The notes under the pieces are model-generated. The model saw nothing but the letters and a program-made list of their open reading frames with translations, did not search any database and was not told where the DNA came from. This document shows, one piece after another, positions 15,699-31,394 of a stretch of 53,692 nt of DNA. This DNA is from an uncultured Alphaproteobacteria bacterium (lineage in GTDB: Bacteria > Pseudomonadota > Alphaproteobacteria > CAAHEQ01 > UBA3637). The stretch spans positions 1-53,692 of the forward strand of contig CANQKV010000002.1 of the NCBI GenBank assembly GCA_947624545.1, given 5' to 3'. How positions within the stretch are numbered: the first letter of the stretch is position 1; every line of letters begins with the position of its first letter. The position numbers and the translations under genes were made by a program.

Positions 15699-15760
15699 TT
15701 TGAAATAAGTCTTGCCATAAAGTTACTTTTATGATAGTATGCAAATATAAGGATACAACA

Positions 15761-16516
15761 ATGCTCTATCAAAAAAGTTTCAACGATAAAACAGCTTTTT
15801 GGGAAACCAATTTTACATTTAACGGAAAGTGGCAAAAACTGCAATGGCGTTCGGAAAATGAAATTGCATCGAAACGCAAGTTTTTTTGCATTGTTCGAAA
15901 AAAGTTTATCAGAAAGTGTGCGCAAAACGGGTTGTTAAATCATCTTTTTACGGAAGATCAAATAAAAAAAGCCTTAAAAGGCATTTTGCCGGACAATTAT
16001 GATGTTCATCACATTTTGCCGATTTCTTTGGGCGGTAAAAACAGACCGAATAATTTATGTATTATTCATAAAATGGTGCATTGTGCTTTGCATCAGCGGT
16101 ATTGGGATATTATTCGAGATAATTGGGATACGCGCCAAAATCCGCAGGCATATGTTTTTTTGCCGACAAATTTAAAAATTATCAGCGATAAAGACGCCTC
16201 TTTGTTTTTTTCCGAAACAGATGTTTTTAAAATTAAAAAAGAATATAAGCAGCGTTTAAAAATCAGTGCCTTTCATGCCAAACAAAAAACTTCTTTGCAA
16301 CGAAAAACAAAGAATCATCAGGCGCGGGTTTCGGATCGGACATTGCAAGAGAAATATCAGCAGAATAAAATTGTGTTTAAGAATAAAAAAAAGCAAACAC
16401 AAAAAAGTCGTTCGACTGCTTTGTCGCGTAAAAAAGCGACTGTTCAATCCAAAGGGAAATATCATCGTGAGATGTATAAAAAATTTCGGCAATGGTATCG
16501 GGAAGAAGAACGTTAA
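15761..16516 (+). CDS. HNH endonuclease-domain protein with a strongly basic C-terminal tail
   Basis: 'YDVHHILPISLGGKNRPNNLCIIHKMVHCALH' is an HNH motif. The C-terminal ~90 aa are K/R/Q-rich. I chose ATG 15761 because 'aagga' lies 8 nt upstream. The ORF-track start is 15731. Confidence 0.7.
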   Translation: MLYQKSFNDKTAFWETNFTFNGKWQKLQWRSENEIASKRKFFCIVRKKFIRKCAQNGLLNHLFTEDQIKKALKGILPDNYDVHHILPISLGGKNRPNNLCIIHKMVHCALHQRYWDIIRDNWDTRQNPQAYVFLPTNLKIISDKDASLFFSETDVFKIKKEYKQRLKISAFHAKQKTSLQRKTKNHQARVSDRTLQEKYQQNKIVFKNKKKQTQKSRSTALSRKKATVQSKGKYHREMYKKFRQWYREEER

Positions 16517-18589: not shown

Positions 18590-18608
18590 AATCTTCATTT
18601 TGTAAGTA

Positions 18609-19871
18609 TTATTTTTCAGATGATCGATAAGCGATAAATCGATTGATAATTTCTTCTACGGTTAAGTTTTCTTTACTCATATCGCCGATAAATTTCAGAT
18701 ACGGAAAAAAGAAAGCGGAATCGTTTGCTTTTTCATGAGAAAACAGATAATAATTCAAAAAGAAATTCCGTATTTTTCCGATATTGGTTTGATAAGTTTT
18801 GTAATTAAAATGTCCTCTTAAATAATTTTCCAACGTGGGGAAAACGTGTTTTGCTTTATAAACGGCATCGCCTAACACGATAACGGGTTTATCATAAAAC
18901 AGGGCTTCAAAACCACTGGATGAATTAACTGTTATCACAACATCGGCTAATTGAAACAGGGTAGAGTTTTCAATGTTTTTATCTTTATGCGTCAGCCAGA
19001 CGACATTTTCAAAATTAAGTGCATAAAGTTTAGCTTCAAAATTGGCATTTTCCGAACCTTTGCGAAGATTTGAAGCCGGATGCTCTTTAATTAAACAAAC
19101 ATAATCTTTTTTGCAGAGCAAAGGCAAGATTTTTTCCAAAACGGCTTTTACGCTTTCAAAGGGAGAATAATGAACTTGATTTGCATCATCATAAAGTTGT
19201 AATGAGATAAGTGCTACTTTTTTATTGCCGATTTTATTTAATATTTGCGTTGCATTTAAATAGGAAAATTTGGATTCATATGCCTGTGAATTAATACCGC
19301 CACTCAATAAAAAATCGTCTTGAACATTTGTTGCGGGTATATTTTTAAAATCGGCAATATCGGATTTTGATAAAGCGGAGCTGCCGTTTACACCCCACGG
19401 ATCAGCCACCAACGAATCCAAGAAAGGAGCGCGCGAACAACCTAATTCCATATTAATAAAACCGATTTTTAATTCTTTTGCTGCTTGTTTGACAGCAAAA
19501 TTTGTTCCCCAACAAACAATATAATCAAACTTTTGGCGATGATAAATTTGTTTAATGAGTTTTGTATATTGACGAGATAAATCGGTATCTTCCATTAATT
19601 CTTCCCATTTTTCAATTCCGCCGTTATCCCATTCTGTCAGACAGGATTCGAAAAATTCATATTCTTTTTTGGTCGGCAAAATAAAGTTTTCTTCCCAATT
19701 TTTGTGCCTTTTGCTGTATTCAAGAAGTGTTTCCCGATTTCCGTAAATATAAAAGCGATGTTCGGTTTTATTGTCATCCAATGCTTTGGCAAAATTATCC
19801 AATATGGTAAAAAAATGCGTAAACATATTTCGAATGGGATGAGGTTCCACGTAAAATAAAAATGATGACAT
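18609..19871 (-). CDS. Capsule polysaccharide biosynthesis protein, KpsS/KpsC-like (Capsule_synth family), copy 1
   Basis: 'VALISLQLYDDANQVHYSPF', 'CLIKEHPAS' and 'VITVNSSSGFEALFYDKPVIVLGDAVY' match the conserved blocks I recall for the KpsS/KpsC beta-Kdo transferase family. It is a paralogue of 30133-31386. Confidence 0.6.
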   Translation of the reverse strand: MSSFLFYVEPHPIRNMFTHFFTILDNFAKALDDNKTEHRFYIYGNRETLLEYSKRHKNWEENFILPTKKEYEFFESCLTEWDNGGIEKWEELMEDTDLSRQYTKLIKQIYHRQKFDYIVCWGTNFAVKQAAKELKIGFINMELGCSRAPFLDSLVADPWGVNGSSALSKSDIADFKNIPATNVQDDFLLSGGINSQAYESKFSYLNATQILNKIGNKKVALISLQLYDDANQVHYSPFESVKAVLEKILPLLCKKDYVCLIKEHPASNLRKGSENANFEAKLYALNFENVVWLTHKDKNIENSTLFQLADVVITVNSSSGFEALFYDKPVIVLGDAVYKAKHVFPTLENYLRGHFNYKTYQTNIGKIRNFFLNYYLFSHEKANDSAFFFPYLKFIGDMSKENLTVEEIINRFIAYRSSEK

Positions 19872-19872
19872 A

Positions 19873-22437
19873 TTAAAACTCCGTATGATTAAAAATATTT
19901 TTAATTTCGTTCATAAAAGTAACTGTTGAGCAATTATTCAGAACATAATCAAAATTGTGTTTAATGTTTTCTTGAATGTTAATTTGATGTCTGCTTAAAA
20001 CGGCATTTTCCCACTCTTGCGGAGTAGAGCAAAGGGTTATGGCAGCTTTTCGAATACGCGTCATATCTTCAATCGGTGTTGCAAATAAAGTTGCTCCCGC
20101 AACGGAACTTTCCAAAAATTTCACGTTTGATTTGCAGTTATTAAAGCGAGACGGCATTTCTAACGGTGCCAGTGTGAAAGCTGTCGCTGACATTGAATTA
20201 AATAAATGCCAATAATCCACAACGTTGTGAAAGAAAACCCGATTTGTTTTTTGAAGCTTTTCAGATGCCGTTAAAACTCCGAAAATCAATAATTTTAAAT
20301 TTTTATCTTTTTCCAAGCATGATAATAAAACATCTTCAATCGATTCAAAATCCAAATTATGTGAAAGTGTTCCCGTGCAGTACATTAATAAATTTTTATC
20401 TTTCGGTTGATTGCGTGCTTGAATTTTTTGAGATATGTTCATAATACTTTCGGGAATAAAATTATGAACGACAAAAACCTTTGCGTGCGGATGAACATTT
20501 AAAACTTCTTTTTTCAATCCCTCCGTTGAGACGGAAACAAAGTTAAACTCCAAAAGCGCTTCTAAATTACATTGAAAAGCAGCTGTTATTTGTTTTAACG
20601 GTAATTTTGAATTTTTATATAAAGATGATTGAATAGCTGCTTCTTGATTTCCGAAAATCAAATCATCGTAATCGGCAATAACAATTTTTCCCAGATTTTT
20701 TAAAATACGAATAATATTTGTTTCAGCTTTGCAGGGACGGTGAAAAATATAAATATCGTAATAATAAGATAAAGCGTTTAAAAAGTTTGTATGTGGCGTA
20801 ATGGTTACGAACGCTCCTTGCGCCGATAAAGCTTCTGCAGGATGATAACACCGATAGCGAACGGAACCGTCTCCGATGGGGCGTCTTACCTGTTGAGTGG
20901 TGGATATATAACAAACTTTTATATTTTTCCAATCCCCTTTTTTTATGCGTTCAATAAGCCGTTTTCGGTTGGCTTTGGATTCCAAAATTTGAAAATCGTC
21001 AATATCTGTCAGTTTGCCGTTGTTTTGGTAAATACTGTTATATTTGCGTTTTTCCATAATTTTATTTAATTTATCAACAAATTCGGTATGTTTTTGTTCT
21101 TCGCCTTTTATATCTCGAATATTGTAAGATAAATGCAATCGCCAATACGTTAGTTTTTTATCTATAAAATAAATTCGATTTTGATAACAAATTTGTCGCC
21201 AGAGCCACCAATCTAAAGCTGTTTTTTTAGGCACATCAAGGAAATTGCATGTGCGAAGCAGCGACGATGCGACACAACAAGCCGAAAAAGTTAAAATATA
21301 ATTTGAAAGGGTAAATTTTTCATCGGAAATTAACCCGTTTTGAGAAATAATTTCCTGTTTTCGGTGGTAGATAACCTTTGCCATATCGAAACATCGTTCT
21401 TTGTTGCCGAAAGTTTCAACATCGTTGACAATAATTTGAACATTTTTTCCCGAATTGATTTTGTTGTTAACAGCTTCCAAATGAGCAGGATCCCAATAAT
21501 CATCGCTTTCGCAAAAGGCAATATACTCTCCTTTTGATTTTGTTAATCCGAGATAAACTGTTTCGGGAAGTCCTTTGTTTTCGCCTTTTTTGTGTTGATA
21601 TAAATGAATAAAAGAATATTTTTTAACATATTTTTTAATCACTTTAACACTGTTGTCGGTTGAACCGTCATCAACAACAATTACTTCAAAATTTGTATAG
21701 GTTTGATTGACTAAACTGTCTAATGTTTTTTTAATGTAATCTTGATAGTTATAACTTGCCACAATAACCGAGAAAAAATGATTGATTGCACATAACGGCT
21801 TTTCTTCTTTTTCAACCCATGTTCTGCCCTCTTTTTTGCCGTGTTTTTCATAGTGCAGAAGCGGATTCATCTTTGCTCTTGCCACATCGGGATTTAATCG
21901 CAAATAGGCTTTTCCGTCGAAAACAGGCGTGCAAAGACGATTTTCTTTCCAACCGACGGTTAAGTAATGTTTAATCGGATCAAGTCCGGCTGCCGCGACA
22001 TCGGGATTTTGTGCCAAATACCATTTTTTATCAAAAAAAGTTGATTTTAATATCAGTTGATAATTTTCATCAACGGGTATTTTTGTTTCTTTTTGTGACG
22101 ATGTTTCAGGTAAATTCAACCACGAGCGCCCTTCTTCTTTACCGCTTTTTTCATAATGCAGAAGCGGATTTATCTTCGCTTTCGCCACATCGGGATTTAA
22201 CCGCAAATAAGCGTTTCCGTCAAATGTTGCGCATGGTTTTTTCCCTTCTTTCCAGCCGTATTTTAAATAATGTTCGGCAGCGTTTTTGGCTTTTCCCTTT
22301 GCTTCGGGATATGTTGTAAAATACCATTTTTCATTCATAAACGGAGAGTTTTGAAGAATTAGAATATTTTTCTTTTCCGCTTTTTTTTGATGGATGAATT
22401 TTATTAAATAAAGTGCTTTATCCATTATTTTTGACAT
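19873..22437 (-). CDS. Multidomain glycosyltransferase: 33-aa shared leader, 2 'HYLxxGWxEGR' repeat modules, GT2 domain, C-terminal GT-B-like domain
   Basis: The GT2 domain is 'FSVIVASYNYQDYIKKTLDSLVNQTYTNFEVIVVDDGSTDNS' with 'CESDDYWD'. The C-terminal ~350 aa are homologous to the C-terminus of the 28235-30130 product ('RYRCYHPAEAL...IFHRPC...IADYDDLIF...VHNFIPES...PKDKNL'). The SD 'aggag' is upstream. Confidence 0.8.
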   Translation of the reverse strand: MSKIMDKALYLIKFIHQKKAEKKNILILQNSPFMNEKWYFTTYPEAKGKAKNAAEHYLKYGWKEGKKPCATFDGNAYLRLNPDVAKAKINPLLHYEKSGKEEGRSWLNLPETSSQKETKIPVDENYQLILKSTFFDKKWYLAQNPDVAAAGLDPIKHYLTVGWKENRLCTPVFDGKAYLRLNPDVARAKMNPLLHYEKHGKKEGRTWVEKEEKPLCAINHFFSVIVASYNYQDYIKKTLDSLVNQTYTNFEVIVVDDGSTDNSVKVIKKYVKKYSFIHLYQHKKGENKGLPETVYLGLTKSKGEYIAFCESDDYWDPAHLEAVNNKINSGKNVQIIVNDVETFGNKERCFDMAKVIYHRKQEIISQNGLISDEKFTLSNYILTFSACCVASSLLRTCNFLDVPKKTALDWWLWRQICYQNRIYFIDKKLTYWRLHLSYNIRDIKGEEQKHTEFVDKLNKIMEKRKYNSIYQNNGKLTDIDDFQILESKANRKRLIERIKKGDWKNIKVCYISTTQQVRRPIGDGSVRYRCYHPAEALSAQGAFVTITPHTNFLNALSYYYDIYIFHRPCKAETNIIRILKNLGKIVIADYDDLIFGNQEAAIQSSLYKNSKLPLKQITAAFQCNLEALLEFNFVSVSTEGLKKEVLNVHPHAKVFVVHNFIPESIMNISQKIQARNQPKDKNLLMYCTGTLSHNLDFESIEDVLLSCLEKDKNLKLLIFGVLTASEKLQKTNRVFFHNVVDYWHLFNSMSATAFTLAPLEMPSRFNNCKSNVKFLESSVAGATLFATPIEDMTRIRKAAITLCSTPQEWENAVLSRHQINIQENIKHNFDYVLNNCSTVTFMNEIKNIFNHTEF

Positions 22438-22540
22438 GATAAATAAACTCCTGCTTTGGAAAAAATAACATATTTGACAGCGTGTTTTTGTTGTTATCCG
22501 TTCAATGATTCGTTAATGCTTTTTGCACCAAATAAACGTT
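22339..22540 (-). repeat. Left copy of a 202-bp perfect inverted repeat (103-nt leader plus the first 33 codons of the 854-aa GT gene)
   Basis: By manual base-by-base comparison, the reverse complement of 22339-22540 is identical to 28132-28333. Confidence 0.92.
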
Positions 22541-22557
22541 CGTTTAATTGGGACAGT
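22533..22557. repeat. Left arm of a 25-bp perfect inverted repeat flanking the promoter spacer
   Basis: taaacgttcgtttaattgggacagt is the exact reverse complement of 22684-22708. Its first 8 nt overlap the inner end of the 202-bp repeat. Confidence 0.9.
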
Positions 22558-22648
22558 GAAAAAATTAAAGAAAAAATTGGAGCGTTTTATTTTGTTTAAT
22601 AAAAAAACTATATTTTTCATTACATTAGAATATAAATATAATTTTAAC

Positions 22649-22676
22649 TTGACTTATTATTTTTATTCGTTATAAT
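22649..22676 (+). promoter_or_regulatory. Near-consensus sigma-70-type promoter facing the 1261-aa gene
   Basis: TTGACT (22649-22654), a 16-nt spacer and TATAAT (22671-22676). The predicted TSS is about 22683-22685, at the first bases of the right 25-bp arm. Confidence 0.6.
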
Positions 22677-22683
22677 GCTGAAA

Positions 22684-22708
22684 ACTGTCCCAATTAAACG
22701 AACGTTTA
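22684..22708. repeat. Right arm of the 25-bp perfect inverted repeat, at the start of the 1261-aa gene leader
   Basis: actgtcccaattaaacgaacgttta is the reverse complement of 22533-22557. A degenerate third copy matching 22 of 28 nt lies at 28112-28139. Confidence 0.9.
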
Positions 22709-22729
22709 AATGAAGCAATGGAGAATTAA

Positions 22730-25700
22730 ATGCCGCTGTTAAAAACAAACGAGAAATCAGATTATGAATTATTAAATACTTCCAAGTATTTTGATAAAAA
22801 GTGGTATTTAAATCGCTATCCCGATGTGGCAAAAGCGGGGAAAGATCCGATTGAACATTATTTGAAATACGGCTGGAAAGAGGGGCGAAACCCCGGTTTA
22901 AAATTTAACTCAAATGCTTATTATCAATTAAATAAAGATGTTAATCGGAACGAAAATCCTTTGCTTCATTATTTAAAATACGGTCAATATGAAAGGCGAA
23001 AAATAAAACCCGTTGTTTCATTTTTTGAGCGGCTGTTTGTTAAAAAAACGGCGATGCAGTTATCTGATTACGATTTAATTAAAAAATCAAAATATTTTAA
23101 TGCCAAATGGTATTTAAAAACATATGCCGACGTGGCAAAAGCGGGGAAAGACCCGATTGAACATTATTTAAAATACGGCTGGAAAGAGGGGCGGAATCCG
23201 AGTAACAAGTTTTCAACGAATTCATATCTTTCTTTATATCATGATGTTAAAAAAGCAGGTGTTAATCCGCTGGTTCACTATTTAAAAAGAGGGCGTGCCG
23301 AGGGGCGCTTGAACGTTTTGCCTCTTGAACAAAAAGATATTGATAAATATAGAAAAAAATATCTGCGTTATCCACATGATGACTTTAAGAAAGTTTTTCT
23401 TTTATCGCATGAATTAACTTATACGGGTGCGCCGTTATCTTTGCTTCAAGCGGCAAAATGTTATCAATCACTGGGGTACAAAGTTACTTTATTAAGTTAT
23501 AAAGACGGTGAATTAAAAAAAGAATTTAAACAAAACAATATTAAAGTTTATATTTACAATCAAAAAGACAACAAAAAAATTGTTAAAATTGCCCTTAAAA
23601 GCGATTTTGTAATTGTCAATACGTTGGTTCCTTATCAAATGTTTGAAGTTTTGGCAAAAATTATGCCGACAATGTGGTGGGTCAGAGAAAGTGCGGCTTT
23701 ACCGGAAGCAAATGAGGATATGAAATCGGTTTTGAAAAACGCCTCAAATGTTTATGCTATGTCCCCTTATTCAAGAGATGAATTTTTAAAATATAATTCA
23801 AAAACAGCTATTTTAAAGCATGGAATTGAAGATTTATATGAAAACGTGCCAATCGATTCGAAAAACATTGTTTTTGCATTGATTGGAACAATCGGGGAAA
23901 GAAAAGGGCAAGATATTTTTATTGAAGCCGTAAAAAAATTGCCGAAAGAATTAAGGGAAAAAGCAAAGTTTTATATTGTCGGACATCCCGTTCAGAAAAA
24001 GTTTTACGAAGAAGTTAAAAAGCAAGCACAAGGCATTGACGAAATTGTTTTTAAAGAACCCATTTCCGACTTTAAGGAAATGATTAAATTTTACGAAAAT
24101 ATTTCCTGCGTTGTCGTGCCGTCGCGAGATGAACCGACATCACGCGTTGTTATTGAAGCCTATATGATGGGACGACCTGCCGTTGTATCGGATCATGTCG
24201 GAGCCAAATATTTGATTGATAACGAGAAAAACGGTTTTATTTTTCCATCGGGCAATGCCGATGAATTGGCGAAAAAATTAGAAAATTTTATTAAGAATTT
24301 TGATCAATTATATGAAAAAATGGGAAAGGCGGCACGAGAGGCATATTTAAAAAACAATACCATTTCTCTTTTGATGAAAAATCTTGAACTTGCGGCACAA
24401 AATTTGAAAAAAACAACTTTGCCGACTCCTCAAAAAACAAAATCGAAAAGTGATTATGAAATTATTGCGCAATCGAAATATTTTGATAAAGATTATTATT
24501 TAAAAACATACCCCGAGGTGGCAAAAGCGAAAATTGACCCGATAAAACATTATTTGGAAATCGGTTGGAAAGAATTTAAAAATCCCAGTGAAAAGTTTAA
24601 TACAAAAAATTATTTATATACATATCAAGATGTTTTACGGGCAAACAGAAATCCGTTATTGCATTGGGAAAAAAACGGAAAACATGAACTGCGGGAAGCG
24701 GAATTAAAGTGCATCAAAAACGGGAAATATTATGAAAATCTGCCTTTTTGGAAATATAAGGAAGAATTGGAATTGTGGTATAAATCAAGGGCGAAAAAGG
24801 AGATTGATTTAAATAATCCCCAAACATACAACGAAAAACTGCAATGGTTGAAATTGTACGATGCCAGACCGGAAAAAACAATGTTGGCAGATAAATATGA
24901 AGTAAGGGAATGGATTAAAAAGAAAATAGGAGAAGAATATTTAATACCGCTGATAGGCGTATATGAAAAATTTGATGATATAGATATTGAGAAGCTGCCG
25001 AAAAAGTTTGTCATGAAATGCACGCACGGGAGCGGTTGGAATATCATCGTGAAAGACAAAGAAGAATTCAATATAGCAGAAGCGCGGGAAAAAATGGAAC
25101 GCTGGCTGAATTCAAATTTTGCATATTCCTGCGGATTTGAATTGCAATATAAAAATATGAAACCGCGGATTATCATAGAAGAATATATGGATGACGGAAG
25201 CGGTGATTTACGGGATTATAAATTCACCTGTTTTAACGGAAAAGTCGATTTTATATGGGTTGACAGTGACAGACATACAAAACACAGAAGAACTTTATAT
25301 AGCACAAAATGGGAAAAGTTACCGTATAAAATGGGAACTCAATATGAAGCGGATGAACCCGTAGAAAAGCCGAAAGAATTATCAAAAATGCTCTCATTCG
25401 CCGCCCGACTCAGTAAGGGGTTTGCGTATGCGCGAGTTGATTTTTATGTCATCAACAATAAAGTGTATTTCGGGGAATTGACTTTTACTTCTACTTCTGG
25501 TATTGATGTTGCCGAGCCAAAATCGTTTGAGCGGCACTTGTTTCAAGCATTAAAGTTACCTCGAAAAGCCTACGATTTATCCCGACAACAATATTGTCGG
25601 GTATCAGAGGCTTATCCGCAACCGCACATTGATGTTACGGCTATTCAAAATCAACCGGAACAAAAATCTAAATCCGATTTAACCCTTTCTATCGTTATTC

Positions 25701-26515
25701 CTATCTACAATGCTTTGTCGGATGTTAAAAAATGTTTGTTCAGTTTAAACCGCGCTCATCTTCTTCCCTCAACGGAAATTTTTCTGATTGATGATTGTTC
25801 CGATACTCAAACTCAAAATTATTTGCTTTCTTTCGTTAATAAATTTAAAAAATTTCAATATGTTCGTAATCCCGTCAATTCAGGATTTATCATTTCCAGT
25901 AATAAAGGAATTGATCTTGCTCATAATGATATTGTCGTTATTTTAAACAGTGATACAAAAGTTCCGCGGGGGTTTGATGCTTTAATATCCGCTTGTTTCA
26001 TTGCCCATCCGCGCGTTGCCGTTGCTTCGCCACTCTCTACGCATTCCGGTCTTTTCTCTATTCCCGAACGCCCGCACTCCAAGCTCGATTCTATTCAGAA
26101 ATTATTGAATGATAATGTTAAACCGACTTATCCCTTAATTACACCCGAAGGATTTTGTCTTTGTTTAAATAAACGTATTATAAATAAAATAGGCAAACTC
26201 GATGAAATTTACGGATTCGGTTACTCCGAGGAAGATGATTTGATTTTAAGGGCGCTTTCAAAAGGGTATAAAACGGTTTTAATAGATAATTTAATTGTAT
26301 ATCATAAATCTCATGCTTCGTTTACCAGTGAAAGAAGATTAAAAATTTTAGAAAAAAACAGAAGAATTTTCAGGCAAAGATGGGGAAATCTGCAAGCTGA
26401 AACACGACAAGCCATGAATATGATGAATATTGTGAAAACAATCAATGACAATGTCAATCGGTTAATTGATAATAAGGAAAACCATGTTCGTTTCAAAAGT
26501 AAAAAAAGCAGGTAA
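22730..26515 (+). CDS. 1261-aa fusion enzyme: 2 repeat modules, GT4 domain, repeat module, TupA-like ATP-grasp domain, GT2 domain
   Basis: The GT4 domain is 'SRDEPTSRVVIEAYMMGRPAVVSDHVGAKYLIDNEKNGFIF'. The ATP-grasp TupA-like blocks are 'YNEKLQWLKLYD', 'FVMKCTHGSGWNIIV', 'DYKFTCFNGKVDFIWV' and 'RVDFYVINNKVYFGELTFTSTSG'. The GT2 domain is 'LSIVIPIYNALSDVKKCLFSLN...IFLIDDCSD...ILNSDT'. The SD 'ggaga' lies 6 nt upstream. Confidence 0.8.
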   Translation: MPLLKTNEKSDYELLNTSKYFDKKWYLNRYPDVAKAGKDPIEHYLKYGWKEGRNPGLKFNSNAYYQLNKDVNRNENPLLHYLKYGQYERRKIKPVVSFFERLFVKKTAMQLSDYDLIKKSKYFNAKWYLKTYADVAKAGKDPIEHYLKYGWKEGRNPSNKFSTNSYLSLYHDVKKAGVNPLVHYLKRGRAEGRLNVLPLEQKDIDKYRKKYLRYPHDDFKKVFLLSHELTYTGAPLSLLQAAKCYQSLGYKVTLLSYKDGELKKEFKQNNIKVYIYNQKDNKKIVKIALKSDFVIVNTLVPYQMFEVLAKIMPTMWWVRESAALPEANEDMKSVLKNASNVYAMSPYSRDEFLKYNSKTAILKHGIEDLYENVPIDSKNIVFALIGTIGERKGQDIFIEAVKKLPKELREKAKFYIVGHPVQKKFYEEVKKQAQGIDEIVFKEPISDFKEMIKFYENISCVVVPSRDEPTSRVVIEAYMMGRPAVVSDHVGAKYLIDNEKNGFIFPSGNADELAKKLENFIKNFDQLYEKMGKAAREAYLKNNTISLLMKNLELAAQNLKKTTLPTPQKTKSKSDYEIIAQSKYFDKDYYLKTYPEVAKAKIDPIKHYLEIGWKEFKNPSEKFNTKNYLYTYQDVLRANRNPLLHWEKNGKHELREAELKCIKNGKYYENLPFWKYKEELELWYKSRAKKEIDLNNPQTYNEKLQWLKLYDARPEKTMLADKYEVREWIKKKIGEEYLIPLIGVYEKFDDIDIEKLPKKFVMKCTHGSGWNIIVKDKEEFNIAEAREKMERWLNSNFAYSCGFELQYKNMKPRIIIEEYMDDGSGDLRDYKFTCFNGKVDFIWVDSDRHTKHRRTLYSTKWEKLPYKMGTQYEADEPVEKPKELSKMLSFAARLSKGFAYARVDFYVINNKVYFGELTFTSTSGIDVAEPKSFERHLFQALKLPRKAYDLSRQQYCRVSEAYPQPHIDVTAIQNQPEQKSKSDLTLSIVIPIYNALSDVKKCLFSLNRAHLLPSTEIFLIDDCSDTQTQNYLLSFVNKFKKFQYVRNPVNSGFIISSNKGIDLAHNDIVVILNSDTKVPRGFDALISACFIAHPRVAVASPLSTHSGLFSIPERPHSKLDSIQKLLNDNVKPTYPLITPEGFCLCLNKRIINKIGKLDEIYGFGYSEEDDLILRALSKGYKTVLIDNLIVYHKSHASFTSERRLKILEKNRRIFRQRWGNLQAETRQAMNMMNIVKTINDNVNRLIDNKENHVRFKSKKSR

Positions 26516-26621
26516 ATATTTTTTCATCGATGAGCCGAAACGTTGAAATATGTTCGGAAAATCAAGGCGTAAAATTGTAATCTCCGAATTTAATTTTTAA
26601 TTATGAATGAAAGGAATCAAT

Positions 26622-27923
26622 ATGAAAATCGGAATAATCGGAACAGGCTATGTGGGATTGCCGACGGGTGTCGGATTGGCAGAGCTGGGTAATACGGTTG
26701 TGTGCGTTGATAAATTAAAAGAAAAAATTGATTCGTTAAAGCGTGGAAAAGTTACTTTATATGAAGAAGGGTTGGAAGAACTGTATCAAAAAAATATGGC
26801 TGCGGGGCGTTTGACTTTTACAACCAATATGAAAAAAGCAATATCGGGCGCTGATGTTGTTTTGATTGCCGTCGGAACACCGCCGCATCCCGTGACACAC
26901 GAAGCCGATTTAAGTTTTATTTATGCGGCAGCAACGGAATTGGCAGAATATTTGACGGATTATACGGTTGTGGCAACAAAATCAACGGTGCCGGTGGGAA
27001 CCGGTGATAATATCGAAAAAATAATTCGAACAAAGAATCCGACGGCGCGTTTTGATGTGATTTCACTGCCCGAATTTTTACGGGAAGGTTTTGCCGTTCA
27101 TGACTTTTTTCATCCGGATCGCATTGTGGTGGGATCGAATTCGAAGAAAGCAACCGAGGTGATTAAAAAATTGTATCGACCTTTTCAGGAAAAAACAACC
27201 CTGTTGGTTGTTTCCCGCCGTTCCAGTGAAACAATCAAATATGCATCCAACGCTTTTTTGGCAATGAAAATACATTACATTAACGAAATAGCAAATTTTT
27301 GCGAAAAAGCAGGCGCAGATGTATCGGAGGTTGCCAAAGGAATGGGGCTGGATTCGCGAATCGGACCGAAGTTTTTAAATGCAGGGGTCGGATTCGGCGG
27401 CAGTTGTTTCCCGAAAGATACCATGGCAATGGCTTTTATGGGACGTATGCTCGGAACGCCGATTGAGCTGATTGAAACGACCATTGCGGGTAATAAAAAG
27501 CGTAAGAAACAAATGGCAGAGCGAATATTGAATGAAATTAAAGAAATGCCGAATGCCAAAATCGGTGTTTGGGGTTTGGCCTTTAAAAACGGCACGGATG
27601 ATTGTCGTCAAAGTCCGGCAATGGATATTATCGGCGAATTGTTGCTGCATCAGGCGAACATAACGGCTTATGACCCGAAAGCAATGGGAGCAGCCTGTCA
27701 ATTGTTAGGCGATAAAATTGATTATGCCGATGATATGTACAGTGCTGCCAAGGAAGCCGATGTGTTGGTTATTCTAACCGAATGGCCGGAATTTGCGAAT
27801 GCGGATCTTGATGTTCTGTCGCAACTGATGAATCATAAAATTATTATTGATTTCAGAAATATGTTAAACAAAGATAAGCTGACAAAAAGAGGATTTAAAT
27901 ATCAATCTGTCGGCAGAGCGTAA
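26622..27923 (+). CDS. ugd: UDP-glucose 6-dehydrogenase
   Basis: It has the Rossmann motif 'MKIGIIGTGYVGLPTG' and the catalytic 'GFGGSCFPKD'. ATG 26622 is preferred because 'aaagga' lies 6 nt upstream. The ORF-track start is 26607. Confidence 0.93.
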   Translation: MKIGIIGTGYVGLPTGVGLAELGNTVVCVDKLKEKIDSLKRGKVTLYEEGLEELYQKNMAAGRLTFTTNMKKAISGADVVLIAVGTPPHPVTHEADLSFIYAAATELAEYLTDYTVVATKSTVPVGTGDNIEKIIRTKNPTARFDVISLPEFLREGFAVHDFFHPDRIVVGSNSKKATEVIKKLYRPFQEKTTLLVVSRRSSETIKYASNAFLAMKIHYINEIANFCEKAGADVSEVAKGMGLDSRIGPKFLNAGVGFGGSCFPKDTMAMAFMGRMLGTPIELIETTIAGNKKRKKQMAERILNEIKEMPNAKIGVWGLAFKNGTDDCRQSPAMDIIGELLLHQANITAYDPKAMGAACQLLGDKIDYADDMYSAAKEADVLVILTEWPEFANADLDVLSQLMNHKIIIDFRNMLNKDKLTKRGFKYQSVGRA

Positions 27924-28131
27924 AAATGAAAAACAAAGATAAATAATAAGTAGAAAGTTAATTAATATTTTTGGTTTTCGTTTCAGATATGAAAATATAA
28001 AAGAAATCAACATTTCTTTCAATCAGTGTTGTTTATGTTAAAATCAACCGATTCGGCGGATTTTTTCATTTATTTTTAAAAATCAAACAGTTATTAAAGA
28101 ATATTTCTTATAAAATTGCACCAACTAGACC

Positions 28132-28333
28132 AACGTTTATTTGGTGCAAAAAGCATTAACGAATCATTGAACGGATAACAACAAAAACACGCTGTCAAAT
28201 ATGTTATTTTTTCCAAAGCAGGAGTTTATTTATCATGTCAAAAATAATGGATAAAGCACTTTATTTAATAAAATTCATCCATCAAAAAAAAGCGGAAAAG
28301 AAAAATATTCTAATTCTTCAAAACTCTCCGTTT
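28132..28333 (+). repeat. Right copy of the 202-bp perfect inverted repeat (103-nt leader plus the first 33 codons of the 631-aa GT gene)
   Basis: It is identical to the reverse complement of 22339-22540. Identity stops abruptly at codon 34 (R versus M) and decays to 8 of 11 matches just beyond the inner edge. Confidence 0.92.
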
Positions 28334-30130
28334 CGCAAAACAAATGAACGAAAAACAGCTTATGAGTTATTAAACACTTCCAAGTATTTTGATAAAAAGT
28401 GGTATTTAAAAACATATCCCGATGTGGCAAAGGCAGGAATTGATCCGATTAAGCATTATTTAAAATACGGCTGGAAAGAGGGGCGAAACCCCGGTCGATT
28501 ATTTGACGGGAATATGTATCTTTCATTATATGATGACGTTAAGCGAGCAGATATAAATCCGTTAGTGCATTATTTACGCTTCGGAATGAAAGAAAAACGC
28601 AAAATTCATCGTGTTTTTGAAAATAAAAAGGGGTTTGTTCAAGTTTATGAGAAAATTCTTTTAAAATTACCGTTTTATAAAACAAATGAGAAACAAACAG
28701 ATTATGAATTATTAAATACTTCCAAATATTTTGATAAAAAGTGGTATTTAAAAACATATCCCGATGTGGCAAAGGCGGGAATTGATCCGATTAAGCATTA
28801 TTTAAAATACGGCTGGAAAGAGGGGCGAAACCCCGGTCGATTATTTGACGGGAATATGTATCTTTCATTATATGATGACGTTAAGAACTCAAATATGAAT
28901 CCGTTAGTACATTACTTACGCTTCGGAATGAAAGAAAAGCGTTTATTACGTTTGTTAAGAAAAGAAAACAGTCTTGTTTCGTTGTTTAAAAAACCCGTAT
29001 TTTTAAAACGATGTAATCAAATTACAAAACAAAAAAATGACTTTAAAAATATAATAAAGCTTAAAGTTTGTTATATAACTTATACGAGGCGAGTTGTTGA
29101 TTTAATTAAAGATCCTTCCGTTCGATACAGATGTTACAATCCGTCGGAAGCTTTATCCGAAATTGCCGCAGTTGCAACAGTTTGTGATTTAAAAACATTT
29201 TTAAAATTTCCCTCTTATCATTATGATATTTATGTTTTTCATCGTCCGTGTTCAATGAACGGAAAATTTAAAAAAATTTTTCAACAACTGAAAAAACGTC
29301 ATAAAATTTTAATTGCCGATTATGATGATTTAATTTTCAGCAAAAATGTACAAACCGTTCAACAAGCCCCCATTAAATTATGTGAGGGACAAACGCTTGC
29401 TCAAACACGTCAAATTATGAATGATTTCACGGAAACATTAAAATTGTTTGATAATTTTTCCGTAACGACAGCTGCCCTTCAAAACGCCGTTTTGGAAATA
29501 AAACCAAAGGCAAATGTTTCCATTGTTCATAATTTTATACCCGAATCGGTACTTTCATTTATTAAACAACAAAATTTGCAAAATGCGCCTAAAGATAAAA
29601 ATTTAATTATGTATTGTTCAGGCGGAAAAACACATAACGAAGATTTACAATCCGTTACGCCTGCGCTGATACAAACGCTTGATGCTCATCCCGAGTTAAA
29701 ATTAATGATTGTCGGCACTATTGATGTCCCAAATGAGTTAGAACGGCACAAACAGTATGTTTATACAGAACGATGTTTATATTTATATTTATATTTATTA
29801 AAAGTAATGAGTACTGCCGCGCTTCAAATTGCGCCGTTAATTGATACACCGACAACACGATGCAAATCGAATATCAAATTTTTGGAATCGGCTTTAACGG
29901 GCTGCGCTTTAATTACTTCCGATTGCGCTGATACTGTCGCCGATGCTCAAAAAGGCGCCCATATCGGGGTTGCACACTGCCAAGAAGATTGGTATCAGTT
30001 TATTCACAATCGTGCCAAGCTGATTGATTCTAAAACCAGACAAAAAAATATTAAATATGTTGAAAAACATTATACAAAAAATGTTTTTTTAAAAGAGTTT
30101 AATCAGCTGTTGGCTCATTACAGGAGATAA
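28235..30130 (+). CDS. Glycosyltransferase-like protein: 33-aa shared leader, 2 near-identical repeat modules, C-terminal GT-B-like domain
   Basis: The N-terminal 33 aa are identical to those of the 854-aa protein. The modules read 'YELLNTSKYFDKKWYLKTYPDVAKAGIDPIKHYLKYGWKEGRNPGRLFDGNMYLSLYDDVK'. The C-terminal domain is homologous to the C-terminus of the 854-aa protein. Confidence 0.75.
   Translation: MSKIMDKALYLIKFIHQKKAEKKNILILQNSPFRKTNERKTAYELLNTSKYFDKKWYLKTYPDVAKAGIDPIKHYLKYGWKEGRNPGRLFDGNMYLSLYDDVKRADINPLVHYLRFGMKEKRKIHRVFENKKGFVQVYEKILLKLPFYKTNEKQTDYELLNTSKYFDKKWYLKTYPDVAKAGIDPIKHYLKYGWKEGRNPGRLFDGNMYLSLYDDVKNSNMNPLVHYLRFGMKEKRLLRLLRKENSLVSLFKKPVFLKRCNQITKQKNDFKNIIKLKVCYITYTRRVVDLIKDPSVRYRCYNPSEALSEIAAVATVCDLKTFLKFPSYHYDIYVFHRPCSMNGKFKKIFQQLKKRHKILIADYDDLIFSKNVQTVQQAPIKLCEGQTLAQTRQIMNDFTETLKLFDNFSVTTAALQNAVLEIKPKANVSIVHNFIPESVLSFIKQQNLQNAPKDKNLIMYCSGGKTHNEDLQSVTPALIQTLDAHPELKLMIVGTIDVPNELERHKQYVYTERCLYLYLYLLKVMSTAALQIAPLIDTPTTRCKSNIKFLESALTGCALITSDCADTVADAQKGAHIGVAHCQEDWYQFIHNRAKLIDSKTRQKNIKYVEKHYTKNVFLKEFNQLLAHYRR
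28334..28954 (+). repeat. In-frame tandem duplication, period 342 bp (114 aa), inside the 631-aa gene
   Basis: The core 28385-28543 differs from 28727-28885 at 1 of 159 positions by manual alignment. The flanks are more diverged. Confidence 0.85.
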
Positions 30131-30132
30131 TC

Positions 30133-31386
30133 ATGAATTTTTTATTTTATTTGGAACCGCATCCGATTCGCAATTCATATATAAATTTTGTCGGAACAAT
30201 CAGATATTTTTTGCCCGTGTTTAAAAATATATCATCTGATGATAAAATTTTTATTTACAGTAATAAAACGGCACTTGATAATATTCGGCAGAAATATAAA
30301 ATTGATTCGTCTGCTTTAATTTATCCGACGGCGGAGGAAGAACAGTTTTTCGAATCGTTTATGACGGATTGGGAAACAACAGGTATTCGTGATTGGATGA
30401 CATTAATGGCAAAACCGAATGCCCGATATGTTCAAATCATTAAAAGAGTTTGTCGGGATAATAATATTCATTATTTATTACATTGGGCAACAAATGCTTC
30501 GGTTAAACAGGCTTTAAAAGGAACAAAAGTCGGTCTTATTGATATGGAGTTGGGATGCTGTCGCGCTCCTTATTTATCAACTTTGGCTGCCGACCCTTGG
30601 GGCGTGAACGGTGGTGCTGTTTTATCAAAAGCTTCCGATAAAGATTTAAATGTTGTAGATGAAGTTAATCCTGCCGTGTTAGATTTAATGGAATTTTCAA
30701 AACATGCCGATGATGAAGCTTATTTAAAAGGATTTGAATATTTTACCAATAAAAAACTTCTTTCTTTTTTGGATAAAGGAAATAAAGTCGCTTTTATTCC
30801 GTTGCAATTATTTGATGATGCAAACTTATTGATGTATTCCCCTTTTAAAAGTCCGCTTGAAGCGTTAAAAGCCGTGTTACCGATACTCAATCAGTATCAT
30901 TATTCTTGTATTATCAAAGAACATCCGTTATCGGAAAGACGAGGCGGGTTATCCCTTAAAGCAAACGCCGAAGCCAAAAAATATGCCAAAACTTTTAAAA
31001 ATATTTTGTGGATTGATAAATCTTTTATGGATTTAAATAATGCATTGATTTATAAATTGGCGGATTTAGTCATTACAATTAACTCTTCTACCGGCTTTGA
31101 AGCCCTGTTTTATGATAAGCCCGTTGTTGTGTTGGGAGAGGCGGTTTATAAGGTTTCAGGTGTTTTCCCGACACTAAAACAATTTGTTTCCGATCAATTT
31201 AATAAAAAAGATTATTTGCTTAAAATTGCAAAAATACGTTCGTTCTTTTTAAAGAGCTATTTAATTGACGAACAAACGTTTGATTATGATTCTTTTAAAA
31301 AACGAATGGTGTTATTGGGTAATTTAAGTCGGCAACGGCTGTCAACGAAAAAAATTATTGAAATATTGTGGAAAAATAAAAATTAG
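30133..31386 (+). CDS. Capsule polysaccharide biosynthesis protein, KpsS/KpsC-like (Capsule_synth family), copy 2
   Basis: 'VAFIPLQLFDDANLLMYSPF', 'CIIKEHPLS' and 'VITINSSTGFEALFYDKPVVVLGEAVY' match the family blocks. It is colinear with 18609-19871 ('FLFYLEPHPIRN' versus 'FLFYVEPHPIRN'). The SD 'aggag' lies in the end of the upstream gene. Confidence 0.6.
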   Translation: MNFLFYLEPHPIRNSYINFVGTIRYFLPVFKNISSDDKIFIYSNKTALDNIRQKYKIDSSALIYPTAEEEQFFESFMTDWETTGIRDWMTLMAKPNARYVQIIKRVCRDNNIHYLLHWATNASVKQALKGTKVGLIDMELGCCRAPYLSTLAADPWGVNGGAVLSKASDKDLNVVDEVNPAVLDLMEFSKHADDEAYLKGFEYFTNKKLLSFLDKGNKVAFIPLQLFDDANLLMYSPFKSPLEALKAVLPILNQYHYSCIIKEHPLSERRGGLSLKANAEAKKYAKTFKNILWIDKSFMDLNNALIYKLADLVITINSSTGFEALFYDKPVVVLGEAVYKVSGVFPTLKQFVSDQFNKKDYLLKIAKIRSFFLKSYLIDEQTFDYDSFKKRMVLLGNLSRQRLSTKKIIEILWKNKN

Positions 31387-31394
31387 AAAAAATA

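What the first reader, a model, noticed from the sequence alone, without database searches (positions are those of the whole stretch)
22533..22708. 25-bp perfect inverted repeat flanking a 126-bp spacer that carries the TTGACT-16-TATAAT promoter: invertible-promoter architecture or shared operator
Seen in sequence: taaacgttcgtttaattgggacagt (22533-22557) and its exact reverse complement (22684-22708) flank 126 bp. That spacer contains a near-consensus promoter currently facing the 1261-aa gene, and the predicted TSS falls on the first bases of the right arm. The left arm overlaps the inner 8 nt of the 202-bp repeat and lies upstream of the divergent 854-aa gene leader. Established knowledge: short inverted repeats flanking a 100-300 bp promoter segment between surface-structure genes are the hallmark of invertase-driven phase switches. 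Examples are fimS, the Bacteroides capsular PS promoters and the C. difficile cwpV/flagellar switches. Inference: flipping would redirect the promoter toward the 854-aa GT/KpsS-like module. Alternative reading: a third, degenerate copy (28112-28139, 22 of 28 identical) sits in the same relative position upstream of the 631-aa gene leader. All three operon starts therefore carry the element, so it could instead be a common operator or leader motif for one regulator.
Basis: partly seen in the sequence, partly recalled or inferred. Interest (0 to 1): 0.75.

Follow-up and report, generated by a model that had tools for sequence, protein, structure and literature searches.

The report
Invertible promoter between two polysaccharide operons
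A 162-bp promoter segment between two sugar-coat operons of an uncultured gut alphaproteobacterium is flanked by the recombination-site sequence that Bacteroides uses to flip its capsule promoters, so it is very probably a flip switch, though no flipped copy was seen.

Summary
A perfect 25-bp inverted repeat (22533-22557 / 22684-22708) flanks 126 bp that carry TTGACT-16-TATAAT, which reads out through the right arm. It is far beyond chance.

Each arm is a 26-bp imperfect palindrome, TAAACG-(TT/AA)-CGTTTA at its centre. It contains AAACGTTCGTTTAA. That string combines the published B. fragilis Mpi inverted-repeat consensus (ARACGTTCGTN) with the B. intestinalis capsule-promoter repeat (GTTCGTTTAA).

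The only metagenome contig holding the arm's 20-mer has it 95 nt upstream of an Mpi-family serine invertase gene. Related gut alphaproteobacteria carry similar site pairs upstream of homologous polysaccharide genes. One of them has an Mpi-family invertase next door.

Best reading: an Mpi/Hin-type invertible promoter. As assembled it drives the 1261-aa gene and ugd. Flipped, it would drive the 854-aa and 420-aa genes.

Not shown: the window encodes no recombinase, and three other low-coverage assemblies all match the window's arrangement.

The "third copy" (28126-28139) is a real variant site in inverted orientation to the left arm. It might allow a nested 5.6-kb inversion.

Verdict: a new member of a known kind, in an unexpected phylum. 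Confidence about 0.7.

The parts
22523..22557 (.). Site L (left arm). The perfect arm is 22533-22557. The core 14-mer TAAACG-TT-CGTTTA is 22533-22546, with the central dinucleotide TT at 22539-22540. The dyad-symmetric site spans about 22527-22552.
   Evidence: Dyad symmetry is 10/12. It contains AAACGTTCGT, which fits ARACGTWCGT, and GTTCGTTTAA.
22558..22683 (+). 126-bp spacer, 16% G+C. The segment that would actually be exchanged, crossover centre to crossover centre, is 162 bp (22540/41 to 22701/02).
22649..22676 (+). Sigma-70-type promoter TTGACT-16-TATAAT. The predicted start at 22683-22684 is inferred.
   Evidence: 11 of 12. After an in-silico flip, the same promoter is followed by the same 7 nt and then the 854-gene leader.
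22684..22718 (.). Site R (right arm). The perfect arm is 22684-22708. The core TAAACG-AA-CGTTTA is 22695-22708, with the central AA at 22701-22702.
   Evidence: Dyad symmetry is 9/12. TCCCAATTAAACGAACGTTTA is identical to the site next to the Mpi-family gene in L013.
28116..28149 (.). Site S3, a 34-bp imperfect palindrome. The core TAGACC-AA-CGTTTA is 28126-28139, with the central AA at 28132-28133. It is in inverted orientation to L and direct to R.
   Evidence: The TAGACC half-site variant is also the partner site in L014 (9834-9847) and L013 (275-288).
22339..22551 (-). Copy 1 of the 213-nt, 99% inverted repeat: the 854-gene leader plus its first 33 codons. Identity to copy 2 decays at the centre of site L.
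   Evidence: Confirmed in the independent contig L002.
28121..28333 (+). Copy 2 of the 213-nt repeat: the 631-gene leader plus its first 33 codons.
   Evidence: The inner junction is confirmed in the independent contig L027.
18609..22437 (-). Left operon: 854-aa GT2-type glycosyltransferase (19873-22437) and 420-aa Capsule_synth/GT99-like protein (18609-19871). It is predicted to be driven by the promoter only after the flip.
22730..27923 (+). Right operon as assembled: 1261-aa GT4 + TupA-like ATP-grasp + GT2 (22730-26515) and UDP-glucose dehydrogenase (26607-27923).
28235..31386 (+). 631-aa protein (related to the 854-aa glycosyltransferase) and 417-aa Capsule_synth/GT99-like protein. No + strand promoter or terminator match lies upstream, so read-through from the 1261/ugd operon is inferred.

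Best explanation
The two arms are crossover sites for a small serine DNA invertase of the Mpi family (Hin/Gin-like). The 162 bp between their centres is an invertible promoter.

Mechanism:
- A recombinase dimer binds each 26-bp dyad-symmetric site, (C)CCAATTAAACG-NN-CGTTTA...
- The two sites synapse. All four strands are cut at the central dinucleotide, which is TT at L and AA at R, so the sites are inverted.
- One half rotates 180 degrees and the ends are religated, which flips the segment.

Consequences:
- As assembled, TTGACT-16-TATAAT starts transcription at the edge of site R. It drives the 1261-aa multi-domain glycosyltransferase and ugd, and probably reads through into the 631/417 genes.
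- Flipped, the same promoter sits in the same register in front of site L. It then drives the 854-aa glycosyltransferase and the 420-aa KpsS-like gene.
- The switch would therefore toggle between two alternative surface-polysaccharide enzyme sets, rather than simply ON/OFF.

Shown: the repeat, the promoter match, the site anatomy, the identity to Bacteroides Mpi-type repeat cores, the association of the same sequence with Mpi-family genes elsewhere, and the flip geometry.

Inferred: that an invertase is encoded elsewhere in this genome, that inversion occurs, where transcription starts, and the read-through into 631/417.
For: 1. The repeat is perfect over 25 nt and far beyond chance.

2. There is a near-consensus promoter inside the spacer, with its predicted start at the arm edge. 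In B. intestinalis the start was mapped inside the promoter-proximal repeat (PMC8375218).

3. The arm contains AAACGTTCGTTTAA. This covers both ARACGTTCGTN (B. fragilis Mpi-controlled promoters) and GTTCGTTTAA (B. intestinalis capsule invertons) as quoted in PMC8375218.

4. Each site is an imperfect palindrome around a 2-bp centre (10/12, 9/12 and 9/12), like the 26-bp hix sites (PMC3798978). The centres of L and R are complementary (TT/AA).

5. The only JGI metagenome contig with the arm 20-mer has TCCCAATTAAACGAACGTTTA 95 nt upstream of a gene matching NCBIfam NF009949, 'master DNA invertase Mpi family'. The match is E 1e-49 for a 162-aa fragment with YLRVSTDAQ. A TAGACC-type partner site lies 846 nt away in inverted orientation.

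6. Relatives show the same layout.
- L014 has TAGACC-TT-CGTTTA and TAAACG-AA-CGTTTA, 105 nt apart, directly upstream of a 51%-identical homologue of the 1261-aa gene.
- L015, L003 and L017 have analogous pairs with complementary centres (GT/AC, AC/GT, TA/TA) upstream of polysaccharide or unknown genes.
- In L003 a full-length Mpi-family invertase (266.9 bits, E 1e-79, YIRVSTDHQ) is divergently adjacent.

7. The locus is a low-G+C (34%), strain-specific polysaccharide island that is absent from a related genome. Phase-variable surface loci typically sit in such islands.
Against: - No recombinase gene lies in the 53.7-kb window, and the rest of the genome is unavailable.
- No flipped copy was seen. 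Contigs from three other samples are collinear with the window (L001 from 22641, L002 to 22688, L027 to 28186). Their ends do not fall at the inner arm boundaries, as a mixed population would tend to produce. Coverage there was only 2-3x.
- The segment is shorter than the 183-186 bp reported for B. intestinalis.
- Partner sites in L003 and L017 are weak (3 mismatches, near the background rate of 1 per kb).
- Spacers are not alignable between species in either orientation.
- Catalytically dead Mpi paralogues exist in relatives, so the same sites could serve a DNA-binding regulator.
- The Coyne 2003 paper itself could not be read. The consensus is taken second-hand from PMC8375218.
Confidence: 0.7

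Rival explanations
1. Relic or locked inverton. The sites descend from an Mpi-type switch, but this organism has no cognate invertase, or the sites are no longer used. The promoter would then be fixed toward the 1261-aa gene, and the 854/420 operon would be silent or run from weak promoters.
For: No recombinase in the contig. Three other assemblies have the same orientation. The island looks horizontally acquired, so it could have arrived without its invertase.
Against: Unused arms should decay, yet 25 of 25 nt are intact while the flanks have diverged. Mpi in B. fragilis acts in trans on 13 distant regions (PMC4747536), so an absent neighbour gene means little. Consensus assemblies at 2-3x cannot show minority orientations.
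Confidence: 0.15
2. Operator pair. The dyad-symmetric sites L, R and S3 bind a dimeric transcription factor, possibly a catalytically dead Mpi paralogue like those heading polysaccharide operons in relatives. Binding at +1 of the promoter would repress it, perhaps by looping to the upstream site, without any DNA rearrangement.
For: The sites are palindromic. R overlaps the predicted start and L lies 162 bp upstream, which resembles gal/lac-type operator pairs (from memory). A third copy sits in the 631 leader. Dead Mpi paralogues that keep the HTH domain are the first genes of related operons.
Against: No such regulator gene lies in the island or window. Identity of L and R extends 11 nt beyond the palindrome on the spacer side only. 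The exact sequence sits next to catalytically intact Mpi-family genes in L013, and a site of the same type in L003. It matches repeats at which Bacteroides promoters invert. Centre-to-centre distances (162, 119, 173, 144, 144 bp) show no common helical phase. Central dinucleotides differ between species but are complementary within each pair, which strand exchange requires and operators do not.
Confidence: 0.1
3. RNA-level leader element. The shared first 25-35 nt of the divergent transcripts would form a 5' hairpin (UUAAACGAACGUUUAA) that affects mRNA stability or translation.
For: All three leaders carry the element at a similar position. A small hairpin is predicted.
Against: The folds are not better than shuffles for the 1261 and 854 leaders (z -1.07 and -0.21). 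There is no Rfam match. In L014 and L013 the partner site lies where it would not be part of the same leader. No good minus-strand promoter is placed to start the 854 transcript at the arm.
Confidence: 0.03
4. Miniature transposable element: a 176-bp non-autonomous element with 25-bp terminal inverted repeats inserted in the intergenic region.
For: Terminal inverted repeats flank a short AT-rich segment.
Against: There is no target-site duplication; the flanks continue the inverted symmetry instead (I6). It is a single copy in the window. No family was found in the genome or metagenome scans. The site core is conserved at the same place upstream of a homologous gene in another species, with different flanks.
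Confidence: 0.02

Closest known systems
Mpi-controlled invertible promoters of Bacteroides capsular polysaccharide loci (B. fragilis PSA-H; B. intestinalis PVR7-12)
   Same: Short inverted repeats flank a promoter upstream of surface-polysaccharide genes. The repeat core is identical (ARACGTTCGTN / GTTCGTTTAA both lie inside the arm). Transcription starts at or in the proximal repeat. The recombinase is a serine invertase that can act in trans. Mpi-family genes are found with the same site in L013 and with a site of the same type in L003.
   Different: The host is an uncultured gut alphaproteobacterium, not Bacteroidales. The promoter is sigma-70-type, not the Bacteroides TAnnTTTG type. There are no UpxY/UpxZ genes. 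The spacer is 126 bp (162 bp centre to centre) against 183-186 bp. The segment lies between divergent operons, so both orientations would be productive. A third site is present. Inversion is not demonstrated.
Hin/Gin/Cin/Pin DNA-invertase systems (hix/gix sites)
   Same: The crossover sites are 26-bp imperfect palindromes with a 2-bp centre, in inverted orientation. The half-site pattern A-tract-C-(C/G) NN (G/C)-G-T-tract comes from my memory of hix/gix. The L003 invertase's best solved relatives are Gin. The L013 arrangement, with a site inside a coding sequence next to the invertase gene, resembles Gin/Cin tail-fibre switching (from memory).
   Different: The invertase gene is not inside or next to the segment here. 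The segment is 162 bp, not about 1 kb or more. Whether a Fis-type enhancer is needed is unknown; there is no room for one plus about 100-bp loops inside 162 bp.
Tyrosine-recombinase promoter switches (E. coli fimS; C. difficile cwpV and flgB switches)
   Same: A short invertible promoter segment controls surface structures. The size class is similar (from memory).
   Different: Those use tyrosine recombinases and unrelated repeats. The site anatomy and associated genes here are of the serine type.
Campylobacter fetus sap promoter inversion (from memory)
   Same: Oppositely oriented paralogous genes share a conserved leader plus 5' coding block. They flank a several-kb segment that carries the only strong promoter. 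Compare the 213-nt 99% repeat flanking 5.6 kb here.
   Different: sap inversion is RecA-dependent on roughly 600-bp homology and moves an outward-facing promoter. Here the promoter faces inward and has its own small switch, and the homology ends at a site-specific recombination site.

Membership tests
Mpi-type (serine invertase) invertible promoters of polysaccharide loci | Inverted repeats flanking a short segment that carries an outward-reading promoter | tested here: met
   A 25-nt perfect repeat with a 126-nt spacer carrying TTGACT-16-TATAAT, which reads through arm R.
Mpi-type (serine invertase) invertible promoters of polysaccharide loci | The repeat carries the conserved core ARACGTTCGTN / GTTCGTTTAA | tested here: met
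   AAACGTTCGTTTAA is in both arms. The consensus is as quoted in PMC8375218. There are only these 2 matches in the window against 0.61 expected.
Mpi-type (serine invertase) invertible promoters of polysaccharide loci | A cognate Mpi-family recombinase is encoded in the same genome | not testable with these tools
   Only a 53.7-kb contig is available, and it has none. Mpi-family genes are found beside the same site in L013 and beside a site of the same type in L003.
Mpi-type (serine invertase) invertible promoters of polysaccharide loci | Both orientations occur in a population | tested here: inconclusive
   The window and the two informative contigs (L001, L002) share one orientation; L027 confirms only the S3 junction. 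Coverage was 2-3x and no raw reads were accessible.
Mpi-type (serine invertase) invertible promoters of polysaccharide loci | The controlled genes make surface polysaccharide | tested here: met
   GT2, GT4, TupA ATP-grasp, UDP-glucose dehydrogenase and Capsule_synth/GT99-like genes lie on both sides.
Bacteroides CPS regulatory architecture | UpxY (NusG-like) and UpxZ as first genes, and a Bacteroides -7 TAnnTTTG promoter | tested here: not met
   The first genes are glycosyltransferases. The promoter is sigma-70-type. I saw no TAnnTTTG in the spacer on reading the sequence. The organism is alphaproteobacterial.
Hin/Gin-type DNA invertase systems | Dyad-symmetric sites of about 26 bp with a 2-bp crossover centre, as inverted partners | tested here: met
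   Symmetry is 10/12 for L and 9/12 for R, with centres TT and AA. The 26-bp hix reference is PMC3798978.
Hin/Gin-type DNA invertase systems | Invertase gene within or adjacent to the invertible segment, plus a recombinational enhancer | tested here: not met
   There is no recombinase gene within 20 kb on either side. The enhancer cannot be tested.
Tyrosine-recombinase switches (fimS, RecV type) | A tyrosine recombinase and its own repeat type | tested here: not met
   Pfam found no integrase-family domain in the ORFs of 100 aa or more that I scanned. The sites match serine-invertase sites instead.
Operator pair of a looping repressor | Regulator gene at the locus, with operators on the same helical face | tested here: not met
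   There is no candidate regulator in the island. MerR at 31437-31784 belongs to the conserved flank. Site spacings of 162, 119, 173, 144 and 144 bp share no phase.
Miniature inverted-repeat transposable element | Target-site duplication and multiple copies | tested here: not met
   There is no direct repeat at the ends. It is a single copy in the window. No family was found in the collection scans.

The most novel reading that the evidence does not exclude
The island may carry a three-site, two-level switch. L x R would flip the 162-bp promoter. L x S3 would flip the whole 5.6-kb block of promoter, 1261-aa gene and ugd. The L x S3 event could be site-specific, or homologous across the 213-nt identical leaders that end exactly at these sites.

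One promoter could then be dealt to four gene combinations:
- 1261-ugd-631-417
- 854-420 alone
- 1261-ugd-854-420
- 631-417 alone

This would be a promoter shufflon for polysaccharide polymerases. It would use an Mpi-type recombination system shared, probably by horizontal transfer, between Bacteroidota and gut Alphaproteobacteria. In relatives, catalytically dead Mpi paralogues at operon heads might act as site-binding regulators.
Probability: 0.2. Interest if true: 0.72.

Novelty: new member of a known kind. Interest (0 to 1): 0.5.

Why it matters
Promoter inversion by the master invertase Mpi is the textbook way gut Bacteroides vary their capsules. It shapes phage resistance and immune interactions.

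The same crossover sequence, and Mpi-family genes, appear here at polysaccharide loci of uncultured gut Alphaproteobacteria. This suggests the machinery is shared across phyla in the gut. It also suggests these poorly known bacteria vary their surface in the same way.

This example would switch between two enzyme sets rather than ON/OFF. The conserved half-site (CCCAATTAAACG-NN-CGTTTA) is a concrete search key for finding such switches in metagenomes without read data.

Tried and rejected
- **Arm 20-mer in species-representative genomes.** One hit, in a Fibrobacter MAG (L012). It lies inside a coding sequence (LNERL) with no recombinase nearby, so I treated it as chance.
- **Arm 20-mer in JGI metagenomes.** One hit, L013. 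I first dismissed it as chance. A later tblastn showed it lies beside an Mpi-family gene.
- **CCCAATTAAACGNNCGTTTA in viral contigs.** Four loci, all one phage sequence family with no recombinase. Uninformative.
- **Independent assemblies in the other orientation.** Exact look-ups of the 854, 631, 627 and 438-aa products found nothing. L001, L002 and L027 are collinear with the window. L003 and L004 are collinear with each other.
- **Strains with identical ThrRS.** Their DNA diverges within about 100 nt of thrS, and most of the contigs stop within a few hundred nt of it, so they give no orientation data.
- **Spacer orientation by homology between species.** No significant alignment either way.
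- **Known RNA families.** None. The leader hairpins are not significant.
- **Literature.** The string ARACGTWCGT is not in the searchable library, and Coyne 2003 (PMC193581) is not held. The consensus comes from PMC8375218.
- **Other readings.** MITE, RNA-leader and operator readings were considered. They are rejected or down-weighted as listed under rival explanations.
Full report
**Observation.**
- TAAACGTTCGTTTAATTGGGACAGT lies at 22533-22557 and its exact reverse complement at 22684-22708, 126 nt apart.
- The symmetry continues imperfectly to 35 nt (89%).
- No match was expected in shuffles. It is the longest short-range perfect inverted repeat in the 53.7-kb window. Block shuffles never exceeded 16 nt.
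- The spacer is 16% G+C. It holds TTGACT-16-TATAAT (22649-22676, 11 of 12, + strand). A start 7-8 nt downstream falls at the first base of the right arm.

**Setting.** RpoB is 84% identical to proteins named 'MAG: Alphaproteobacteria bacterium'. The window is a whole MAG contig of an uncultured gut alphaproteobacterium.
- The repeat lies in the 292-nt gap between two divergent operons of a six-gene polysaccharide island.
- On the minus strand are an 854-aa GT2 enzyme and a 420-aa Capsule_synth/GT99-like protein.
- On the plus strand are a 1261-aa GT4 + TupA ATP-grasp + GT2 enzyme and UDP-glucose dehydrogenase, followed by a 631-aa protein related to the 854-aa enzyme and a 417-aa Capsule_synth/GT99-like protein.
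- The island (about 18595-31390) has 34% G+C against 41-43% in the flanks.
- It is absent from a related genome, where thrS directly abuts merR (L028).
- Pfam found no recombinase domain in the ORFs of 100 aa or more that I scanned, and tblastn with Mpi-like proteins found nothing in the window.

**Anatomy of the arms.** Each arm is itself an imperfect palindrome around a central dinucleotide.
- Site L is TTGCACCAAATAAACG-TT-CGTTTAATTGGGACAG.
- Site R is CTGTCCCAATTAAACG-AA-CGTTTAAATGAAGCAA.
- Of the 12 positions on each side, 10 (L) and 9 (R) are symmetric.
- This is the layout of the 26-bp crossover sites of serine DNA invertases such as Hin (PMC3798978). In those, a dimer binds the two half-sites and the strands are cut at the central 2 bp.
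- Because the sites are near-palindromes, their relative orientation is set by the centre (TT against AA, so inverted) and by the asymmetric half-sites. The inverted alignment (25 of 25, then 6 of 10) is clearly better than the direct one, about 23 of 34 by my count on the sequences printed.

**Link to a known system.** The arm contains AAACGTTCGTTTAA.
- Shkoporov et al. (PMC8375218) report that five B. intestinalis capsule loci have 183-186-bp invertible promoters flanked by the perfect repeat GTTCGTTTAA.
- They state that this overlaps the repeats ARACGTTCGTN, which flank promoters controlled by the serine master invertase Mpi in B. fragilis.
- They mapped transcription starts inside the promoter-proximal repeat.
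- Both strings are contained exactly in the arm, and the predicted start geometry is the same.
- The 10-mer ARACGTWCGT occurs only at these two places in the window.
- I recalled the consensus before checking it, and could verify it only second-hand, because Coyne 2003 is not held.

**Independent association with the recombinase.** The arm 20-mer was scanned against JGI metagenomes and gave one hit, L013. I first took it for chance.
- A later tblastn with Mpi-like proteins showed a serine recombinase gene starting 95 nt downstream of TCCCAATTAAACGAACGTTTA in that contig.
- The available 162-aa fragment matches NCBIfam NF009949, 'master DNA invertase Mpi family serine-type recombinase', at E 1e-49, and has the catalytic YLRVSTDAQ.
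- The same locus holds TTAACG-TT-GGTCTA 846 nt away in inverted orientation, inside an ORF.
- A random 20-mer hit landing beside such a gene would be very improbable.
- The single hit in species-representative genomes (a Fibrobacter MAG) lies in a coding sequence with no recombinase and is probably chance.

**Relatives.** The 1261-aa and 854-aa proteins have only about 50-65% identical homologues, all in gut MAGs. Their loci show the same kind of element.

| Locus | Site pair (centres) | Gap or centre distance | Context |
|---|---|---|---|
| L014 | TAGACC-TT-CGTTTA and TAAACG-AA-CGTTTA | 105 nt apart | Ends 36 nt before the start of a 51%-identical homologue of the 1261-aa gene; 17 nt of the leader equal the window's |
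| L015 | TAAACG-GT-CGTTTA and TAAACG-AC-CGGATA | 159 nt apart | In front of a polysaccharide operon |
| L003/L004 | TAAACG-AC-CATTTA and a weak GT-centred partner | Arms 132 nt apart | Between the operon and a divergent 196-aa gene |
| L017 | 32-nt imperfect repeat | 110 nt between the arms | Precedes a 720-aa unknown gene in the same chromosomal slot next to thrS |

- The divergent 196-aa gene in L003/L004 matches NF009949 over its full length: 266.9 bits against a cut-off of 272, E 1e-79, YIRVSTDHQ. Its best solved relative is Gin.
- Across the five loci the central dinucleotide differs (AA, AC, TA), but partners are always complementary, as strand exchange requires.
- Centre-to-centre distances are 162, 119, 173, 144 and 144 bp, with no common helical phase.
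- The partners in L003 and L017 have three mismatches, close to the background rate of one per kb. These two cases are weak.

**Mechanism proposed.** A trans-acting Mpi-family invertase flips the 162 bp between 22540/41 and 22701/02.
- As assembled, the promoter drives the 1261-aa gene and ugd.
- No + strand promoter match and no terminator match lies between ugd and the 631-aa gene. I therefore infer read-through into the 631 and 417 genes.
- Reversing the spacer in silico puts TATAAT-GCTGAAA directly in front of ACTGTCCCAATTAAACGAACGTTTATTTGGTGCAA..., the 120-nt leader of the 854-aa gene.
- Minus-strand promoter matches in the present orientation are weak and at chance level.
- The switch would thus alternate between two enzyme sets, each with its own KpsS-like protein. 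The two KpsS-like proteins are 43% identical, and the C-terminal parts of the 854-aa and 631-aa proteins are 36% identical.

**The third copy.** S3 (28126-28139, TAGACC-AA-CGTTTA) sits in a 34-bp palindrome.
- It is homologous to L and R.
- Its TAGACC half-site is not mere decay. The same variant is the partner site in L014 and in L013.
- S3 is inverted relative to L and direct relative to R.
- The 213-nt, 99% identical block shared by the 854 and 631 genes (leader plus 33 codons) loses identity exactly at the centres of L and S3. The rest of the two modules are old paralogues.
- This suggests recombination at these sites, or conversion bounded by them. It leaves open a nested 5.6-kb inversion.

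**Evidence against, and limits.** Inversion was not seen.
- Contigs from three other samples match the window: L001 from 22641, L002 up to 22688, and L027 up to 28186.
- Only L001 and L002 test the spacer orientation. All three have 2-3x coverage.
- Their ends do not coincide with the inner arm boundaries.
- Spacers cannot be aligned between species.
- In L014 and L003 the best promoter match in the spacer faces away from the polysaccharide genes. Its -10-to-site distance (19 and 21 nt) is close to the window's 18 nt. That is what an OFF-oriented copy would look like, but these are only consensus matches.

**Rivals.**
- Locked relic of such a switch: 0.15.
- Operator pair for a dimeric regulator: 0.10. 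This could be a catalytically dead Mpi paralogue, like those that head the operons in L003 and L015.
- RNA leader hairpin: 0.03. The folds are not better than shuffles and Rfam has no match.
- Miniature transposon: 0.02. There is no target duplication, and it is single-copy.

**Verdict.** The element is best filed as a new member of the Mpi/Hin-type invertible-promoter kind. It is notable for its host phylum, its position between two productive operons, and the third site. Confidence that the arms are Mpi-family crossover sites is about 0.85. Confidence that the segment actually inverts in this organism is about 0.65-0.7.

Noticed in passing
window 22339-22551 and 28121-28333: A 213-nt, 99% inverted repeat forms the leader plus first 33 codons of the otherwise diverged 854-aa and 631-aa genes. 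It flanks 5.6 kb holding the promoter, the 1261-aa gene and ugd. Identity ends at the centres of sites L and S3. The layout resembles the Campylobacter fetus sap arrangement and could allow a large inversion.
   Followed up: partly
window about 18595-31390: The six-gene polysaccharide locus is a low-G+C island (34% against 41-43%). It lies between the thrS and merR terminators. It is absent from the related genome L028, where thrS abuts merR directly.
   Followed up: yes
L003 7631-8260, L004 7631-8260, L015 4343-4909: The first gene of the polysaccharide operons in related gut alphaproteobacteria is an Mpi-family paralogue (NF009949, 91-98 bits). It has lost the catalytic Ser and Arg residues but keeps the HTH domain. 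It may be a site-binding regulator derived from an invertase.
   Followed up: partly
L013 1-1728 (JGI contig Ga0114982_1000612): An AT-rich segment with two unknown ORFs is bounded by a TAGACC-type site inside one ORF (275-288) and the exact window-type site (1128-1148). A G+C-rich Mpi-family invertase gene follows. It looks like a coding-sequence inversion system of the Gin/Cin kind. Only 1.7 kb of the 19-kb contig could be read.
   Followed up: partly
L017 12188-12361: In a related genome whose ThrRS falls in the same 90%-identity cluster, the slot after thrS holds a 720-aa gene with no Pfam match. It is preceded by a 32-nt imperfect inverted repeat with a 110-nt spacer and a TAAAGG-TA-CGTTTA core.
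   Followed up: partly
L017-L026, downstream of thrS: Ten contigs that encode one identical ThrRS protein (a close relative of the window's) diverge within about 100 nt after thrS. Most of them end within a few hundred nt of the gene. This looks like a hypervariable, hard-to-assemble surface-gene slot.
   Followed up: partly
L027 1-456: The first 456 nt of this contig are unrelated to the window. They begin an ORF whose start looks DapA-like to my eye, then join the 1261-aa gene at window 24204. This is either a chimeric low-coverage assembly or a structural variant.
   Followed up: no
window 22714-23307, 24406-24693, 28312-28941; also 21822-22275: The 854, 1261 and 631-aa proteins all begin with tandem repeats of about 100 aa (YFDKKWYL..YPDVAKAG.DP..HYLKYGWKEGRNP). 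The same repeats occur in many homologues. Their function is not known to me.
   Followed up: no
window 15731-16516: A 261-aa ORF between the Mla-type transporter genes and thrS has only weak HNH-endonuclease hits. It is conserved in relatives as a 251-aa gene.
   Followed up: no
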